IMG/VR virus record: IMGVR_UViG_3300045999_007288
Location: 10,049 to 74,048 of that record
Length of the DNA: 64,000 nucleotides
Source of the DNA: a virus
Strand: one strand, 5' to 3'
The position numbers and the translations under genes were made by a program. The notes beneath the pieces are model-generated. The model made no database searches. It was given only the letters and a program-made list of their open reading frames with translations, and was not told the origin of the DNA. Positions 7,587 to 61,613 of the stretch are shown here, piece by piece. Numbering within the stretch: the stretch's first letter is position 1; every line of letters begins with the position of its first letter.

Positions 7587-7595
7587 GATTTACAA

Positions 7596-7624
7596 ATTAT
7601 AATTAATTGACATCAAATTGTCAA
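7596..7624 (-). promoter_or_regulatory. Perfect-consensus sigma70-type promoter for the sulfotransferase-like gene
   Basis: Minus strand TTGACA (7624-7619), 17 nt spacer, TATAAT (7601-7596). ATG is at 7586. Overlaps the inverted repeat AATTGACA-N6-TGTCAATT (7605-7626). Confidence 0.85.
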
Positions 7625-7651
7625 TTATTAATTAATTGATAATAAAATATT

Positions 7652-7876
7652 TCAGTCTTTGTCTGTTACTATAACTGCAACTCGATCAACCCAGATCATT
7701 CTACCACGGCATGCTATATTCCATTTGGTTTCGCCGTGTTCGTGTGTACATTCTGTAAAAGTTTCCCCAACAATTCGAACATCTTTAGCTAAGTGTTCTA
7801 CTCCGTTTTCAAATACACGCCAGACCAATTCACTGCCATTATGTTTAGTATTAAATCTGACGTGATATTTGTTCAT
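7652..7876 (-). CDS. Hypothetical phage protein
   Basis: ATGA-coupled to the upstream kinase gene. Natural-looking beta-rich sequence. Confidence 0.7.
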   Translation of the reverse strand: MNKYHVRFNTKHNGSELVWRVFENGVEHLAKDVRIVGETFTECTHEHGETKWNIACRGRMIWVDRVAVIVTDKD

Positions 7877-57586: not shown

Positions 57587-57936
57587 CTTTACAACAAATT
57601 TTTATAGCTACCACAGTTTGGGCTATTCTCACAGCCATAGTGTATACACATTCAAATTGGAGCAAGATTAAACATTGCTATAAAATGTGGTTTACAAAAG
57701 AATATTGGACTGATTATAATATTGTAGAATTCGCTAGTTGGTCCGCAAAAGCTATTATTATTGTACCTGGTTTAATTTTTGGAATACAAATTTGGTGGTT
57801 ATATTTTTTAACTTTATTCACCAGCTTGACACTTATTTGGGCCAGCAATAAAAAACTTCTTCCTACATTAATAGGATTTAATACCATATGGGTATGGATT
57901 AGTTGCATGGTATTGGCAAAGCATTTAATAACTTAA
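57583..57936 (+). CDS. Small integral membrane protein (about 4 TM)
   Basis: Hydrophobic, Trp-rich helices. ATGA-coupled to the upstream gene. Confidence 0.75.
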   Translation: MTLQQIFIATTVWAILTAIVYTHSNWSKIKHCYKMWFTKEYWTDYNIVEFASWSAKAIIIVPGLIFGIQIWWLYFLTLFTSLTLIWASNKKLLPTLIGFNTIWVWISCMVLAKHLIT

Positions 57937-57950
57937 AACAATTTCTACTC

Positions 57951-59066
57951 GTGTTCCGCTTTAATTCAATATACGAATATCAACTTGAAGTTACAACGTA
58001 TTGTAATGCAGCTTGTCCCCAATGCCCTAGAAATATTCAAGGATCTGGAATAAATCCTTACATGCCATTAGTACATTTAGATCGACGTATAGTGGATTCG
58101 ACATTTAGTACTGATCACTGCAAAAATCTTCGTCAGATATTTTTCTGTGGCAGTTACGGCGATCCTATTATGCATCCCGACTTTTTAAGTATACTACAAG
58201 ATTTTAGAAATAAGAACCCAACCTTATGGTTATACATTCACACCAACGGTGGTGTACATGACGAAAGTTATTGGTGTGAAATAGCTAACATAATGTCGGG
58301 ATATGGTCAAATTGATTTTGGTTTTGATGGACTTGAAGATACGTTACCGATATACAGACGTAATGTAAAATATGAAATAGCTATGCGTAATGCCAGAGCT
58401 TTCATAAACGCGGGTGGTAGAGCACAATGGAATTATATTGTGTATAAACACAACGAGCATCAAGTTGAAGAAGCTAGAATATTAAGTCAAAAGTATAAAT
58501 TTTATAATTTTTTACCTAGAAAAACTGGCAGATTTTATGATCACAAAAATGAAACTAGCTATCCAAATTGGCCTGTATTGAATAAAAATAGAGAAACAGA
58601 ATATGTGTTAGAAGCCCCTGTTGGGCAAGAATGGCAAAACCCTAGCGTACAAAAAATACAAATTTTAAAAAAAATGCATGGGAGCTTTCACGATTACTTA
58701 AAACAAACAACTATCAAATGCGATGCTCTATTAGGAAACAAAGTTGTCATTACTGCTGAAGGCCTAGTGTTGCCATGCAATTTCTTTGAACATAATTTAT
58801 ATGATGCAAGATTTCATGCAGACAATTATATGCCTGGCGTAAATGATGCAAGTTTTATAAACGGTAAAAATCAAATTATGGAATTTATTAATCATTATAA
58901 AAACGAAATCGACATAAAGCAGAAAAATCTATGTGATATTTTTAAATCTCAATTTTGGACAGAGTTAGTCAATCGATGGTCAGGAAAAGATAAAATTATG
59001 GAATGTGCAATGACTTGCGGAGAAAAATTTACAAAGGTGTGGGATCAAGGAGGATCTATTAGATGA
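57951..59066 (+). CDS. Radical SAM protein with C-terminal SPASM/twitch domain
   Basis: CNAACPQC, CGSYGDP, HTNGG, C-terminal C..VITAEG.V.PC..CAMTC. GTG start at 57951 preferred over 57903. Confidence 0.88.
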   Translation: MFRFNSIYEYQLEVTTYCNAACPQCPRNIQGSGINPYMPLVHLDRRIVDSTFSTDHCKNLRQIFFCGSYGDPIMHPDFLSILQDFRNKNPTLWLYIHTNGGVHDESYWCEIANIMSGYGQIDFGFDGLEDTLPIYRRNVKYEIAMRNARAFINAGGRAQWNYIVYKHNEHQVEEARILSQKYKFYNFLPRKTGRFYDHKNETSYPNWPVLNKNRETEYVLEAPVGQEWQNPSVQKIQILKKMHGSFHDYLKQTTIKCDALLGNKVVITAEGLVLPCNFFEHNLYDARFHADNYMPGVNDASFINGKNQIMEFINHYKNEIDIKQKNLCDIFKSQFWTELVNRWSGKDKIMECAMTCGEKFTKVWDQGGSIR

Positions 59067-59647
59067 AAGTTTTAATTACAGGTGGTAATAGAGGGCTTGG
59101 ATTAGAGCTAGTTAAAAACTTAAATGGAACTAGCATCAGTAGAGCAGATGGCATAGATATCACTCGAGATCATAAACAAATTGCCGAAATCAGCGTGAAT
59201 TATGATGTTTTTATCAATAATGCGTTTGACGGTCCTCCCCAGGAAGCATGGGCTAATTTTGCACAAACTAACTTGTATATGGCTGTATACGATGCGTGGA
59301 AAACTGCAAATAAGCAGGGTTGGATTATCAATATTGGTAGTTCAGGATCCAAGTCTATAATTGCACCTGAACCCAGATTCGAAACATATCGTATTAGCAA
59401 GGCTGCACTAGAACACGCTAGCAAGCAAGGCACACAAGCATTTAAACAAAACAAAGTACCTTTTAAAACAACATTAATCACTTTAGATAGATTAGACACT
59501 GAATTAAGCAGAAGTCGTTCAAACTGGACAGGTAACGGCATTGATTTGACTGATGTGTATAATTTTATCGACTATGGCTCAAACATAAATCCAAACACCT
59601 GCATAGAAGAAATAACATTTTATTGTAACTTAGACTATCTGGCATAA
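59063..59647 (+). CDS. Short-chain dehydrogenase/reductase
   Basis: TGGNRGLG, FINNA, IINIGS, YRISK (YxxxK). Confidence 0.88.
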   Translation: MKVLITGGNRGLGLELVKNLNGTSISRADGIDITRDHKQIAEISVNYDVFINNAFDGPPQEAWANFAQTNLYMAVYDAWKTANKQGWIINIGSSGSKSIIAPEPRFETYRISKAALEHASKQGTQAFKQNKVPFKTTLITLDRLDTELSRSRSNWTGNGIDLTDVYNFIDYGSNINPNTCIEEITFYCNLDYLA

Positions 59648-59684: not shown

Positions 59685-60119
59685 ATGACTTGGTTATTCG
59701 AAGGCTCTGAGGTTGAGAATTTACCCGACAGTTGTGTTGGATTTGTATATCTTATCACAAACAAATCAACAAACAAAAAATACATTGGCAAAAAACTGGC
59801 AAAATTTAGTAAAACTACGCAACGAACAGTAAAATTAAAAAACGGTACAAAAAAGAAAAAGAAAATTCGCTCAAAAGTCGATTCGGACTGGAGAGATTAT
59901 TATGGATCAAGTCCTGAATTAAAAAGGGACGTAGAAACACTGGGCTTAGAAAATTTTACTAGAGAAATTCTTTATTATTGTGAATCAAAAGCAATTTGTA
60001 GTTATATTGAAGCAAGAGAACAATTTACCAGGCGTGTATTAGAATCAGATGAATATTACAACGGCATAATCGACTGCCGTATCCATGGCTCCCATATAAA
60101 AAATAAGTTAAGCATTTAA
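59685..60119 (+). CDS. Stand-alone GIY-YIG endonuclease (T4 EndoII/Seg-like catalytic domain)
   Basis: GFVYLITN....KKYIGKK, YYGSS, FTREIL, E, YYN. Only 144 aa. Confidence 0.85.
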   Translation: MTWLFEGSEVENLPDSCVGFVYLITNKSTNKKYIGKKLAKFSKTTQRTVKLKNGTKKKKKIRSKVDSDWRDYYGSSPELKRDVETLGLENFTREILYYCESKAICSYIEAREQFTRRVLESDEYYNGIIDCRIHGSHIKNKLSI

Positions 60120-60121
60120 GA

Positions 60122-60547
60122 CTGGCACAGGTCAATATCATGTGCCCTAGACCTGGATCTCGGATCGCAGGGATGGAAGACTCACCGTGCTAGTGAGCAC
60201 TCAACCACTACCCGAAAGGATGAGGATTGCCAATGCCGCAATTTGGTTGTTTGAAAAGGATTAATAGGCTAAAAAGACGTAGCAGCGATGCTACACGGTT
60301 TATATGTATGTTAGCGTATAGATATAAACTTGCCGTTGTGATAAGAACTGAGCTCGAGGTACCGGACAACCGCCTCTGTAACTGCTTTAACGCTAATGAC
60401 TGTGCTACTCGGATGAAGCATTATCATTTTTGCCCTGTGCGGGCAAAGTGTGACTGATTAATCTGGATGAAACTTATATCGCTTCGCTCTTTAATTAAAA
60501 TATATCACTGAGCGACAGCGAAAGTGATAGATGTGCTACGCACATCT
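60122..60547 (+). ncRNA. Putative structured non-coding RNA (unidentified family)
   Basis: GC-richer than its surroundings, with at least 10 stems. Examples: GTAGCA-GCGA-TGCTAC (60279-60294), CC-GAAA-GG (60212-60219) inside CAACCA/TGGTTG, GTTTATAT/ATATAAAC, TTTGCCC/GGGCAAA, AGATGTGC/GCACATCT. The GNRA loops read on +. Confidence 0.6.
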
Positions 60548-60765
60548 TAAAAGAATGGTAATCCTGTTTCCTTTGTGGTATTGATGTTCTCTTCAATAAT
60601 ACCATTGATTATCTCTCGATCTTGGACACTAATCTCCATTGCTTCACTATAAGTGAGACCACCTCTCATATACCAACATATTTTTAATATATTCTTTCTT
60701 AAGGCTTTTGAGTATTTGTCGAAGTCATTGATCATTTCGACAATTGATTCATTGTCTAAACTCAA
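60547..60765 (-). CDS. gp51-like / tail-assembly-chaperone 'T' segment, probably made by -1 frameshift from the upstream ORF
   Basis: Weak TTG start. The frame opens exactly at a T TTT TTC site. W.MRGG..YSE.M..S..DRE.I resembles chaperone C-terminal segments. Confidence 0.65.
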   Translation of the reverse strand: MSLDNESIVEMINDFDKYSKALRKNILKICWYMRGGLTYSEAMEISVQDREIINGIIEENINTTKETGLPFF

Positions 60766-60770
60766 AAGCC

Positions 60771-61613
60771 TTATCCGAAAAAACTAGCTTGCTCGAATAC
60801 CAATGGTGTTTCGTAAGATTTTTCACAGTCTTCATGCGAACAAATAAGGGGTATTTTTTTAAGGGGGCTTTGACTGCCAATAAGTTCCAATTTGTTTTTA
60901 ACAGTGTCCCAGACTGGCTTATTACAATTTTGAAAAAACTCATGAATTTGTTCAGGATTCTCTACTAGAACACCGTCTTCGATTTTGATAGCAGCCACAC
61001 TTTTGCTTATTTGTTCCACAGTTAAATTTAATAATCTACTAAACACTGTATTAAATTGAGTTAATTTTTCTTCTTCGCTGAGAGACTCATTGGCGACTAC
61101 GGCCATTAGTCTCTGTTGTTCATAGTTTTCTAAACTAGCTTTATTAAATTGATGGTAACTTTGGGGTTTAATGTAAATTTCAAGCCCTTCTACTTTTAAT
61201 GTTTCATCAAAATTTGGACAAGTAATTTGCGCCGATAACGCCCCTAAGTCAACTGTATTTTCATTTTTTCTTTGACAGTGTGGGCACACACTAAAAAAAT
61301 CCATACCTGGCCCGTAAGTTGCTTGTCTGATTGCAATTAATACAGCATCTAGATCTATGGATGGCATTTTCCAAGCGTCTTTAATTGATGGAACACAACT
61401 TTGTATAACTTCTACGGTGCTTTGTCCGTTTAATAAAGCATCGGGAGTTTGTAAAATTAATTCATCTTTAGCTGTCATTGGATATACTGGTAATTCTCCG
61501 GTAACTGGCATATCAATACTGCCTTGTGGATACCATTTCCCTTGACTGGGTAATTTTAAGTATAATTGAGGTTGCCTAAAATGTTTTGCTAGAGGATTCG
61601 TGCTGTTAACCAT
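60771..61613 (-). CDS. gp26: Baseplate hub assembly protein / tail chaperone, T4 gp26-like
   Basis: Y.KLPS.G, PMTAKDEL, D.D..L.AIR..TYG, CPHC, C..EDC, ends in FFG. Confidence 0.75.
   Translation of the reverse strand: MVNSTNPLAKHFRQPQLYLKLPSQGKWYPQGSIDMPVTGELPVYPMTAKDELILQTPDALLNGQSTVEVIQSCVPSIKDAWKMPSIDLDAVLIAIRQATYGPGMDFFSVCPHCQRKNENTVDLGALSAQITCPNFDETLKVEGLEIYIKPQSYHQFNKASLENYEQQRLMAVVANESLSEEEKLTQFNTVFSRLLNLTVEQISKSVAAIKIEDGVLVENPEQIHEFFQNCNKPVWDTVKNKLELIGSQSPLKKIPLICSHEDCEKSYETPLVFEQASFFG
60777..60783 (-). other. Candidate -1 programmed ribosomal frameshift site (U UUU UUC)
   Basis: Reads ...AGT TTT TTC GGA TAA. The -1 frame reads TAG TTT TTT CGG ATA AGG CTT TTG AGT TTA GAC, in frame with 60765..60547. 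Confidence 0.65.

What the first reader, a model, noticed from the sequence alone, without database searches (positions are those of the whole stretch)
59685..60547. Minimal GIY-YIG nuclease followed immediately by a ~430-nt highly structured non-coding element
Seen: this is the only long non-coding stretch in a genome otherwise packed with overlapping genes, and it starts right after the nuclease stop. It folds into many stems. GGCAC/GTGCC interleaves with AGGTC/GACCT (60124-60154; pseudoknot or switch). A multibranch domain is closed by CAACCA/TGGTTG with a GAAA loop. There is a GCGA tetraloop hairpin, GAGG..CGG-ACAA-CCG-CCTC (60356-60376), and mutually exclusive 3' pairings (TCGCTTCGCTC/GAGCGACAGCGA versus TATCACT/AGTGATA). 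GGATG(A/G) recurs four times. The protein has no separate DNA-recognition domain but has a long basic insert (KTTQRTVKLKNGTKKKKKIRSK). Inference: a nuclease-associated RNA (ribonucleoprotein, possibly guide, scaffold or antitoxin) analogous to HEARO/OMEGA pairings, or an independent phage ncRNA, ribozyme or origin.
Basis: partly seen in the sequence, partly recalled or inferred. Interest (0 to 1): 0.78.

Follow-up and report, generated by a model that had tools for sequence, protein, structure and literature searches.

The report
Twin-box phage RNA behind small nuclease
The gene-free 430 bases behind a small nuclease gene of this uncultured freshwater T4-like phage encode a real, multiply knotted non-coding RNA. 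Its first third is a catalogued but unexplained motif, the rest carries one 7-letter word twice, and the nuclease looks like a constant neighbour rather than a required partner.

Summary
ORF 59685-60119 is a 144-aa SegE-type GIY-YIG domain-only protein. Bases 60120-60546 are one conserved structured RNA of about 430 nt. Its first 133 nt are a full-length match to Rfam Polynucleobacter-1 (RF01718, 114 bits), an orphan motif already reported in 2010 to lie downstream of this gene family. The remaining 300 nt are in no database. On 72 non-redundant relatives, a 96-pair model with three pseudoknot helices is 93% paired, and 73 pairs show double changes.

The 3' domain carries one 7-mer twice (60411-17 and 60465-71). 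The two copies are identical in 146 of 147 RNAs and change together about 18 times on the tree.

Linkage to the nuclease is strong: 140 of 144 RNAs have it upstream. It is not obligatory:
- a complete 162-kb genome has the nuclease but no RNA;
- two loci have an unrelated PD-(D/E)XK nuclease in its place;
- ORFs can sit between nuclease gene and RNA;
- no nuclease residue tracks the boxes.

No complementary partner was found in five phage genomes.

Best reading: an autonomous phage ncRNA at the end of an early or middle operon. The guide or RNP reading is not supported. This scan has found the same RNA family many times on other DNA.

The parts
59685..60119 (+). Gene for a 144-aa GIY-YIG domain-only nuclease (SegE-type; PHROG 447, mis-named 'NAD synthetase' in many phage records).
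   Evidence: Pfam PF19835 covers residues 3-129 against profile 1-123, E 2e-32. phrog_447 E 2e-37. GFVY22 and Y33IG are invariant, as are R93, E109 and N126. The AlphaFold model has pLDDT 90, and the best PDB fold is the I-TevI catalytic domain, prob 0.96.
60105..60119 (+). Conserved leader (AAGTTAAGCATTTAA; consensus AGGCA/AAGCA ... CAGTWAA) just before the Rfam start. It overlaps the last codons and the stop of the nuclease gene.
   Evidence: The same motif precedes the RNA where a different ORF lies upstream (L003, L114, L136, L354, L393). It therefore belongs to the RNA element, not to the GIY coding sequence.
60120..60252 (+). 5' domain, equal to Rfam RF01718 Polynucleobacter-1. Helices: PK1 60121-22:60131-32; P1 60125-29:60141-45; P2 60153-59:60163-70; P3 60179-85:60193-98; three-way junction P4 60202-07:60244-49, P4a 60208/60212-13:60218-19/60222 (GAAA loop), P4b 60225-30:60238-43.
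   Evidence: cmscan gives 114.3 bits (gathering score 37), model positions 1-141. All helices have double changes.
60253..60334 (+). Linker with the conserved AAGGCUAAAAAGA, hairpin P5 (60279-83:60290-94) and long hairpin P6 (60298-309:60318-329). The P6 loop 60311-16 forms pseudoknot PK2 with 60391-96.
   Evidence: All 11 pairs of P6 show double changes. PK2 has 5 of 6, for example GUUAGCG/CGCUAAC changing to CUGAUAU/AUAUCAG. No Rfam match at E up to 10.
60335..60396 (+). Pseudoknotted core: P7 GUUGU 60335-39 with ACAAC 60366-70 (inside the P9 loop); P8 GAGC 60350-53 with GCUU 60384-87; P9 GAGG 60356-59 with CCUC 60373-76. The tract GGUACCGGNNNACCGCC is nearly invariant.
   Evidence: Helices 12-14 are 96-100% paired, with 3, 4 and 2 pairs showing double changes. 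Invariant columns G239-C255 of A1. The core is also kept in the variant RNAs that have another 5' domain.
60396..60427 (+). Hairpin A with a variable stem. Its 10-nt loop ACUCGGAUGA presents box A (GGAUGAA, 60411-60417).
   Evidence: The stem differs between relatives but stays complementary: run length before versus after the loop is 3.83 against 3.50+-0.09 for shuffled partners. Box positions were defined by identity coupling.
60428..60448 (+). Hairpin P10 (UUUUGCCC / GGGCAAAG) between the two boxes. Pair 60431:60445 covaries with 60343, a possible base triple.
   Evidence: Helix 15 is 96% paired. One search gives MI for 60343 with both 60431 and 60445.
60452..60474 (+). Repeat of the GUGAC-N6-9-N-A-YYY-box unit. 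Box B (GGAUGAA, 60465-60471) is preceded by AUCU instead of ACUC and followed by A instead of G. It lies 54 nt after box A.
   Evidence: The 7-mer is identical to box A in 146 of 147 distinct RNAs; spacing is 47-59 nt. Joint changes on the tree: 60411/60465 change 17 and 18 times, jointly 18; 8 of 8 independent pairs go the same way.
60475..60546 (+). 3' tail: small hairpin P11 (60481-82:60486-87), hairpin P12 (60503-09:60523-29 with inner 60512-13:60518-19, conserved UGAGCG..AGCGAA) and terminal hairpin P13 (60530-36:60540-46).
   Evidence: Helices 16-20; P13 is 97% paired with 6 of 7 pairs doubly changed. In many relatives a T4-type late promoter TATAAATA, an RBS and the ATG of the next + gene follow directly.
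60547..60765 (-). Convergent 72-aa gene of unknown function. It and the gp26-like baseplate gene (60771-61613, -) are the conserved downstream neighbours. They mark the site, and are not shown to belong to the RNA.
   Evidence: tblastn synteny in most loci, with 0-3 kb of variable genes between the RNA and this gene. PF12322 T4_baseplate for 60774-61613.

Best explanation
Shown: bases about 60105-60546 encode one non-coding RNA of about 440 nt with at least 20 helices and three pseudoknot helices. It is the full-length form of the orphan Rfam motif Polynucleobacter-1, which covers only its 5' third. It is a single-copy gene of a large clade of uncultured freshwater T4-like phages, with genomes up to 355 kb.

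Shown: it sits at a fixed site, as the last element of a + strand block of early or middle type genes that runs into the late baseplate genes. It nearly always lies 10-60 nt behind a small, strongly conserved, domain-only GIY-YIG nuclease gene.

Inferred: it is transcribed from upstream together with the nuclease gene. There is no late promoter in front of it, its terminal hairpin closes the unit, and a late promoter starts the next one. It then acts as an RNA in its own right. The nuclease is a conserved neighbour, probably a structure-specific DNA nuclease of the recombination and packaging machinery. It is not the RNA's obligate protein partner.

Inferred mechanism (about 0.3 on its own): the conserved pseudoknotted core holds two copies of one 7-nt word, R-N-A-U-R-A-W, in register. 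One copy is in a hairpin loop and one in a single strand. The two copies either touch each other base for base or are read together by one two-fold partner. That contact is the functional heart of the RNA. The 5' Polynucleobacter-1 domain is an exchangeable accessory.
For: - Rfam: 114 bits, full length.
- The whole 429-nt unit is conserved end to end in more than 100 loci.
- Covariation: 96 pairs, 93.3% paired, 73 with double changes, score 0.448 against 0.170 shuffled and 0.05-0.08 slid.
- One copy per genome in five records, two of them 99-100% complete.
- Downstream synteny holds while the nuclease (about 70% aa identity) is far better conserved than the baseplate protein (about 40%).
- No TATAAATA in front of the RNA, but one right behind its terminal hairpin in many loci.
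- An RNA-run contig bridges 59911-60264, which is only a weak hint.
- Independence from the nuclease.
- Twin boxes: identical in 146 of 147 RNAs. Five positions change jointly (18, 4, 6, 4 and about 26 joint changes), and 8 of 8 and 7 of 7 independent pairs go the same way.
- The fixed flanks CUC versus UCU are kept in all 72 sequences, which rules out gene conversion.
- The variant RNAs keep the core and boxes but have another 5' domain.
Against: - No direct evidence of transcription, of the ends, or of a stable RNA. The only RNA-run data are assembled contigs that may contain DNA.
- 97% adjacency to one gene family is more than the conserved gene order elsewhere in the region would give, so some functional tie to the nuclease (shared transcript, processing, regulation) is not excluded.
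- Where GIY is missing, the replacement is again a small nuclease (PD-(D/E)XK) in two of four cases, which hints at a tie to 'a nuclease'.
- No partner for the boxes was found, and a base-for-base contact of two direct repeats has no established structural precedent of this length.
Confidence: 0.6

Rival explanations
1. Nuclease-RNA partnership: the RNA binds the adjacent small nuclease as scaffold, inhibitor, antitoxin-like regulator or targeting subunit. The two identical boxes address the two subunits of a dimeric nuclease, or two identical half-sites.
For: - 140 of 144 RNAs lie behind the GIY gene on the same strand, with a median gap of 24 nt.
- In two of the four exceptions another small nuclease (PF24608 PDDEXK_15) sits at exactly that place, with a gap of about 10 nt.
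- The nuclease lacks any DNA-binding domain.
- An RNA-run contig spans the gene-RNA junction.
Against: - 21 of 77 close homologues (66-76% identical) have no RNA nearby, and a complete genome has none at all.
- The whole protein family (phrog_447, hundreds of cultured cyanophages, Melnitz, phiM12) works without such an RNA.
- ORFs are tolerated between gene and RNA.
- No GIY residue follows the frequently switching box position (maximum normalised MI 0.18).
- No complementary target in five phage genomes.
Confidence: 0.15
2. Homing arrangement: the RNA gene is simply a very conserved target, and free-standing homing endonuclease genes (GIY-YIG, sometimes PD-(D/E)XK) have settled beside it. They cut nuclease-less alleles within the invariant RNA-coding sequence.
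For: - The Pfam family is named after T4 SegE, a free-standing homing endonuclease.
- Two unrelated nuclease folds occupy the same site.
- The RNA gene has 15-20-nt invariant tracts that would make good targets.
Against: - Occupancy is about 97%, with essentially no nuclease-free alleles.
- The nuclease is more conserved than the structural genes.
- It has no DNA-binding domain, and the same protein sits at other sites without the RNA.
- Complete genomes with it lack EndoVII and PDDEXK_15, which fits a housekeeping role.
Confidence: 0.08
3. Self-processing or processed precursor: the conserved pseudoknotted core is a ribozyme, or a substrate for a host RNase. The two identical boxes are two identical cleavage or ligation sites that release or circularise the hairpin-containing piece of about 54 nt between them.
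For: - Invariant unpaired nucleotides sit in a doubly pseudoknotted core.
- The two sites are identical whatever their sequence, as at the unit boundaries of rolling-circle RNAs.
- The box contains an RN|AU pattern that resembles the RNase E preference. This comparison rests on my own knowledge.
Against: - No match to any self-cleaving ribozyme or intron family of Rfam at E up to 10.
- No joint between the boxes in the RNA-run contigs (low power).
- No natural variant with one box and no P10 among 147 RNAs.
Confidence: 0.08
4. Purely cis-acting 3' element of the nuclease or operon mRNA (terminator, stabiliser, translational regulator), or a DNA-level element such as an origin with two iterons.
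For: - Position at the 3' end of a transcription unit, with a terminal hairpin followed by a new promoter.
- The direct repeats are about five helical turns apart.
- In T4 the corresponding genome region holds oriF. This is my own knowledge, not tested here.
Against: - 96 covarying RNA pairs with three pseudoknot helices and invariant single strands are far beyond what a terminator or an origin needs.
- The element stays intact when another ORF separates it from the nuclease gene.
- Box spacing varies from 47 to 59 nt.
Confidence: 0.05

Closest known systems
Polynucleobacter-1 RNA motif (Rfam RF01718; Weinberg et al. 2010, Genome Biol 11:R31, PMC2864571)
   Same: Bases 60120-60252 match the whole 141-position model at 114 bits. 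The habitat (fresh water) and the position downstream of one conserved small gene family are as described in 2010.
   Different: The Rfam model is only the 5' third. The RNA continues for another 300 nt or so, with two more pseudoknots, an invariant core and the twin boxes. It is clearly phage-borne, whereas the 2010 paper found it in no purified phage. Some relatives keep the 3' two-thirds but have another 5' domain with no RF01718 hit.
HEARO / OMEGA RNAs (IscB, IsrB, TnpB guide RNAs)
   Same: A large structured RNA encoded next to a small nuclease gene.
   Different: Different nuclease fold (GIY-YIG, not RuvC/HNH). The RNA lies downstream of the gene and has no terminal guide, there are no transposon ends, co-occurrence is not obligatory in either direction, and no target complementarity was found.
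Large orphan 'ornate' bacterial and phage RNAs (GOLLD, ROOL, OLE, raiA)
   Same: Size class (over 400 nt), many helices and pseudoknots, strong covariation, phage association (GOLLD, ROOL), unknown function. This comparison rests on my own knowledge.
   Different: No sequence or model similarity (Rfam scan). The identity-coupled twin boxes are not a described feature of those RNAs.
T4 SegE and I-TevI GIY-YIG homing endonucleases
   Same: The nuclease domain matches: Pfam SegE_GIY-YIG, and the best structural match is the I-TevI catalytic domain.
   Different: No linker or DNA-binding domain. The protein is 144 aa, as is its whole family (phrog_447, profile 148). It is highly conserved and near-universal at this site, unlike sporadic selfish endonuclease genes.

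Membership tests
Rfam RF01718 Polynucleobacter-1 | Covariance-model score at or above the curated gathering score (37 bits) over the full model | tested here: met
   114.3 bits, E 4.6e-24, model positions 1-141, window 60120-60252 +.
Rfam RF01718 Polynucleobacter-1 | The model's helices are kept by compensatory changes in relatives | tested here: met
   Helices 1-8 (P1, P2, P3, P4, P4a, P4b, plus an extra 5' pseudoknot PK1) are 88-100% paired and all have double changes.
Rfam RF01718 Polynucleobacter-1 | Lies downstream of genes of family GOS11034 (possible homologue PSSM2_218 of cyanophage P-SSM2), as stated in 2010 | tested here: inconclusive
   The RNA lies behind one conserved gene family in 140 of 144 loci, and that family has hundreds of cyanophage homologues. 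I did not check that GOS11034 or PSSM2_218 is this same family.
GIY-YIG nuclease superfamily (SegE-type domain, PF19835) | Profile match above the curated cut-off, and GIY / YIG motifs 10-11 residues apart | tested here: met
   112 bits against a cut-off of 25. G19-x-V21-Y22 and Y33-I-G35 are invariant in 29 relatives.
GIY-YIG nuclease superfamily (SegE-type domain, PF19835) | Catalytic Arg, Glu and Asn of the fold | tested here: inconclusive
   R93, E109 and N126 are invariant and E94 nearly so. The model has the GIY-YIG fold (I-TevI catalytic domain, prob 0.96, TM 0.64 on the target). Residue-by-residue equivalence was not established.
Free-standing homing endonuclease (SegA-G, I-TevI type) | Nuclease domain joined to a C-terminal DNA-binding domain; sporadic presence among related genomes | tested here: not met
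   144 aa, domain only, as in the whole of phrog_447. Present at this site in about 97% of RNA-bearing loci and about 70% identical between phages whose baseplate protein is about 40% identical.
RNA-guided nuclease systems (OMEGA / HEARO-like) | Obligatory co-occurrence of nuclease and RNA | tested here: not met
   Nuclease without RNA: 21 of 77 close homologues and the complete genome G001. RNA without this nuclease: L354 and L393 (PD-(D/E)XK instead) and L380.
RNA-guided nuclease systems (OMEGA / HEARO-like) | A variable guide segment complementary to a target | tested here: not met
   The only fast-changing parts are the two identical 7-mers. No complement was found inside the RNA or from -450 to +150, in the window, or as covarying or paired sites in five phage genomes. 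Host genomes could not be tested.
Group I intron carrying a GIY-YIG gene | Intron core recognised by the family model, and a split host gene | tested here: not met
   No Intron_gpI match at E up to 10. The upstream gene ends 37 nt before the nuclease ATG, and the downstream gene is on the other strand.
Type III toxin-antitoxin | Tandem repeats of a short antitoxin RNA upstream of an endoribonuclease toxin gene | tested here: not met
   A single 430-nt non-repetitive RNA lies downstream of a DNA-nuclease-type gene.

The most novel reading that the evidence does not exclude
The two boxes pair with each other position by position in parallel orientation: A.A, G.G, U.U and C.C homo-pairs, U.A reverse Watson-Crick pairs, and C.U/U.C at the fixed flanks. 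That would be a 12-13-position parallel-stranded clamp between a hairpin loop and a single strand, a tertiary motif with no natural precedent of that length.

Three observations point this way. All five coupled positions keep the same register (i with i). Mixed states are almost absent (1 of 147) although one position has switched at least 17 times. The only frequent non-identical combination is U with A.
Probability: 0.15. Interest if true: 0.8.

Novelty: new variant of a known kind. Interest (0 to 1): 0.62.

Why it matters
Polynucleobacter-1 has been an orphan motif since 2010. The data here show three things about it:
- It is only the first third of a phage RNA of about 440 nt with three pseudoknot helices.
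- This RNA is one of the most conserved genes of abundant freshwater giant T4-like phages, more conserved than their baseplate proteins.
- Its conserved heart is a pair of identical, co-evolving 7-mers.

Large, highly structured RNAs of unknown function are rare and have repeatedly led to new biochemistry. Same-letter covariation of two direct repeats is not explained by ordinary base pairing. It gives a sharp, testable handle: mutate one box against both. The result also corrects the tempting 'RNA-guided GIY-YIG nuclease' reading. It suggests instead that the mis-annotated 'NAD synthetase' family of T4-like phages is a housekeeping, structure-specific nuclease.

Tried and rejected
- Group I intron, tRNA or tmRNA, known ribozymes: no Rfam match at E up to 10 apart from RF01718, and no tRNA in the window.
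- Hidden coding: the only ORF in the spacer (76 aa, TTG start) is not conserved. The look of the box as 'sense codon plus UGA/UAA stop' (also in the divergent L380, AGU-UGA) was considered as a bypass or recoding signal and dropped, because in-frame stops lie just upstream of both boxes and the frame is not kept between relatives.
- CsrA-type GGA sponge: dropped, because 64 of 139 RNAs have AGA and others GCA or GAA in both boxes.
- Gene conversion as the cause of box identity: rejected, because the flanks CUC/UCU and G/A stay different in all sequences.
- Internal Watson-Crick partner of the boxes: none.
- Partner in the phage genome: none in the window. No covarying orthologous site (low power, few alignable sites). 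No second close pair of the word. No wobble-tolerant reader of the form U + reverse complement of the box + GGGU.
- Nuclease as base-specific reader: no covarying residue.
- Late promoter in front of the RNA: none conserved.
- Bacterial copies: my one genome contigs pattern scan returned only chance matches, and 151 genomes of one Burkholderiales family gave no RF01718 hit. The earlier notes' claim of copies in Polynucleobacter islands is therefore neither confirmed nor refuted here.
- Expression: four RNA runs gave only a few short assembled contigs. The uncovered parts say nothing.
- Cultured phages: no nucleotide match in 50,697 phage records. The nearest cultured homologues of the nuclease (Melnitz, phiM12, S-SRM01, P-RSM4) have no long spacer behind the gene.
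Full report
**What is there.** The window is part of a 74-kb IMG/VR virus record estimated to be 21% complete. ORF 59685-60119 (+) encodes 144 aa and matches Pfam SegE_GIY-YIG over its whole length (E 2e-32). It also matches PHROG 447, a family of domain-only proteins of about 148 aa that many records wrongly call 'NAD synthetase'. Directly after its stop codon, bases 60120-60252 match the complete Rfam model RF01718, Polynucleobacter-1, at 114 bits against a gathering score of 37. Nothing else in the spacer matches any of 4227 Rfam families at E up to 10, and the window has no tRNA. Apart from a 72-aa gene, 60120-60770 is the largest stretch of the window without an ORF of 90 aa or more.

**What was known.** Weinberg et al. 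2010 (PMC2864571, Additional file 1) described Polynucleobacter-1 from 16 examples in fresh water, estuary samples and one Polynucleobacter genome. They noted that most copies lie downstream of genes of family GOS11034, possibly homologous to PSSM2_218 of cyanophage P-SSM2. They also noted that the 3' half is not always detected, and that no purified phage carried the motif. No later paper in the held library deals with its function. The link between gene and motif is therefore not new. The size, architecture and phage origin of the RNA are.

**The whole spacer is one RNA.** More than 585 viral contigs encode close relatives of the nuclease. The 295 nt behind the Rfam match are conserved as well as the match itself. 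An iterated profile defines a 429-position unit that is matched end to end in about 100 loci and corresponds to window 60120-60547. A short conserved leader (AGGCA/AAGCA ... CAGTWAA) precedes it. This leader is also present where a different ORF lies upstream, so the RNA probably starts near 60105.

**Structure.** I aligned 72 sequences that are under 90% identical to each other. Mutual information and RNAalifold led to a model of 20 helices and 96 pairs with three pseudoknot helices. These are PK1 (the 5' end with the P1 loop), PK2 (the P6 loop 60311-16 with 60391-96) and P7 (60335-39 with the P9 loop 60366-70).

| Measure | Value |
|---|---|
| Cells paired | 93.3% |
| Pairs with changes on both sides | 73 of 96 |
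| Covariation score, model | 0.448 |
| Covariation score, column shuffles | 0.170 (0 of 500 reach the model) |
| Covariation score, partners slid by 1-3 columns | 0.05-0.08 |

The single-sequence fold alone is unremarkable (z -2.1). AGGTC/GACCT and the alternative 3' pairing TCGCTTCGCTC/GAGCGACAGCGA are not.

**Twin boxes.** The 3' domain contains a duplicated unit, GUGAC-N6-9-N-A-YYY-[7-mer]-R.
- Box A (60411-17) lies in the loop of a hairpin with a variable stem and is flanked by ACUC and G.
- Box B (60465-71) lies in a single strand after hairpin P10 and is flanked by AUCU and A.

The 7-mer R-N-A-U-R-A-W is identical in the two boxes in 146 of 147 distinct RNAs, and the spacing varies from 47 to 59 nt. 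I built a tree without these columns and counted changes on it:

| Window positions (A / B) | Changes in A | Changes in B | Joint changes |
|---|---|---|---|
| 60411 / 60465 | 17 | 18 | 18 |
| 60412 / 60466 | 4 | 4 | 4 |
| 60415 / 60469 | 6 | 6 | 6 |
| 60417 / 60471 | 4 | 4 | 4 |
| 60406 / 60460 | 25 | 17 | 26 |

For 60411/60465, 8 of 8 independent pairs on supported branches go the same way (p 0.008). For the G state of 60406/60460 the count is 7 of 7. The flanks never homogenise, so this is selection and not gene conversion. A divergent relative (L380) has AGUUGAA twice.

No Watson-Crick partner exists inside the RNA or within -450 to +150, or in the window beyond chance. I fetched five phage records (two complete, at 347 and 355 kb) carrying four different words. 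I found no orthologous site that changes with the word, though few sites were alignable. I found no second close pair of the word, and no wobble-tolerant reader sequence.

The same register at all coupled positions, the near absence of mixed states despite many switches, and U with A as the only common non-identical combination all argue for a direct, register-keeping contact of the two boxes. The alternative is one strictly two-fold reader. A tolerant antisense partner fits less well. This is inference.

**Relation to the nuclease.** I drew two samples anchored on the RNA, one on a 5'-domain pattern and one on a 3'-core pattern. Together they hold 153 distinct RNAs:

| Context upstream of the RNA | Distinct RNAs |
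|---|---|
| GIY gene directly upstream, same strand (median gap 24 nt) | 134 |
| GIY gene upstream, with an unrelated ORF of 228-334 aa in between | 6 |
| No GIY gene | 4 |
| Too little upstream DNA to tell | 4 |
| 5' part of the RNA variant or cut | 5 |

Of the four without GIY, L354 and L393 carry the full RNA about 10 nt behind a PD-(D/E)XK nuclease (PF24608; PHROG 244 'RusA-like resolvase') that follows a gp46-like gene. The 89.5-kb (25% complete) record of L354 has no GIY gene.

In the other direction, 21 of 77 informative close homologues of the nuclease (66-76% identical) have no RNA. Most of these are followed, with an ATGA overlap, by a membrane-protein gene of 290-400 aa. The complete 162-kb genome G001 has the nuclease and no RF01718 anywhere. 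Cultured phages with homologues (Melnitz 52%, phiM12, ACP17, S-SRM01, P-RSM4, over 300 cyanophages) have no long spacer behind the gene. No nuclease residue follows the frequently switching box position (maximum normalised MI 0.18).

The nuclease is about 70% identical between phages whose neighbouring baseplate protein is about 40% identical. It has invariant GIY/YIG, R93, E109 and N126. It models at pLDDT 90 as a GIY-YIG fold closest to the I-TevI catalytic domain, and the 'basic insert' forms a conserved beta-hairpin. Complete genomes that carry it lack both EndoVII and PDDEXK_15. I read it as a housekeeping, probably structure-specific, DNA nuclease that a PD-(D/E)XK enzyme can replace. 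This is inferred, not shown.

**Transcription.** No T4-type late promoter is conserved in front of the RNA. Where a + strand gene follows, TATAAATA, an RBS and the ATG come right after the terminal hairpin P13. So the RNA most likely ends an upstream early or middle unit. The stretch occurs in at least 14 lake-water DNA runs. In one freshwater metatranscriptome run a 354-nt contig spans 59911-60264, that is, the gene's 3' half, the stop and the 5' domain. Contigs of RNA libraries can contain DNA, so this is only a weak hint.

**Modularity.** In G005-type phages (L005, L008, L019, L056) the pseudoknotted core, the boxes and the tail are kept, but the first 170 nt or so are a different sequence with no RF01718 hit. 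The catalogued motif is therefore the exchangeable part.

Earlier notes of this scan describe the same 'extended Polynucleobacter-1 twin-box RNA' on many other genomes. My results agree with them on structure, boxes and independence from the nuclease. They add the PD-(D/E)XK replacement, the phylogeny-aware counts and the negative partner searches. I could not reproduce their claim of nuclease-free copies in Polynucleobacter chromosomes.

Noticed in passing
L006:3420-4556, L017:524-1525, L023:3426-4568 and about 15 more loci: In about a quarter of the closest nuclease homologues, the gene overlaps (ATGA) the start of a 290-400-aa protein with an N-terminal membrane segment (MTYLLFA.AL.LSAVAAYY...) instead of being followed by the RNA. 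There is only a weak SbcC-like PHROG hit.
   Followed up: partly
L005:3430-3640; L008, L019, L056 likewise: The variant RNAs with another 5' domain carry a second pair of directly repeated 7-8-mers 61-69 nt apart. The word differs between relatives: TATGTGAA twice in L005 and L019, TCCGTTGA twice in L008. This may be a second twin-box module.
   Followed up: no
L354:3963-4484 and L393:8819-9385: A PD-(D/E)XK nuclease (PF24608, PHROG 244) sits in exactly the place of the GIY-YIG gene in front of the RNA, after a gp46-like SbcC gene. This looks like a non-orthologous replacement.
   Followed up: partly
loci L035, L039, L058, L084, L085, L176, L182, L185, L186 and others, first 10-20 nt after the RNA: A T4-type late promoter consensus TATAAATA follows the RNA's terminal hairpin directly, then an RBS and the ATG of the next gene.
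   Followed up: no
L003:3965-4068 (the same contig as L148): The contig ends with an inverted copy of the RNA's last 100 nt (profile positions 327-429 on the other strand), overlapping the true copy. This is probably an assembly fold-back at the terminal hairpins.
   Followed up: no
phage records (e.g. NC_027204 gp201, NC_015283 PRSM4_212): The domain-only GIY-YIG family is annotated 'NAD synthetase' in hundreds of cyanophage and rhizobiophage records, although the notes themselves cite a GIY-YIG domain. This is a propagated mis-annotation. In P-RSM4 the gene is followed by tRNA-Arg.
   Followed up: no
window 57903-59647: A radical-SAM protein (387 aa) and a short-chain dehydrogenase-like protein (194 aa) lie just upstream of the nuclease gene. 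This pair is kept in only a few relatives.
   Followed up: no
window 7587-7872: This is the only other stretch of the window, 286 nt long, without an ORF of 90 aa or more. I did not examine it.
   Followed up: no
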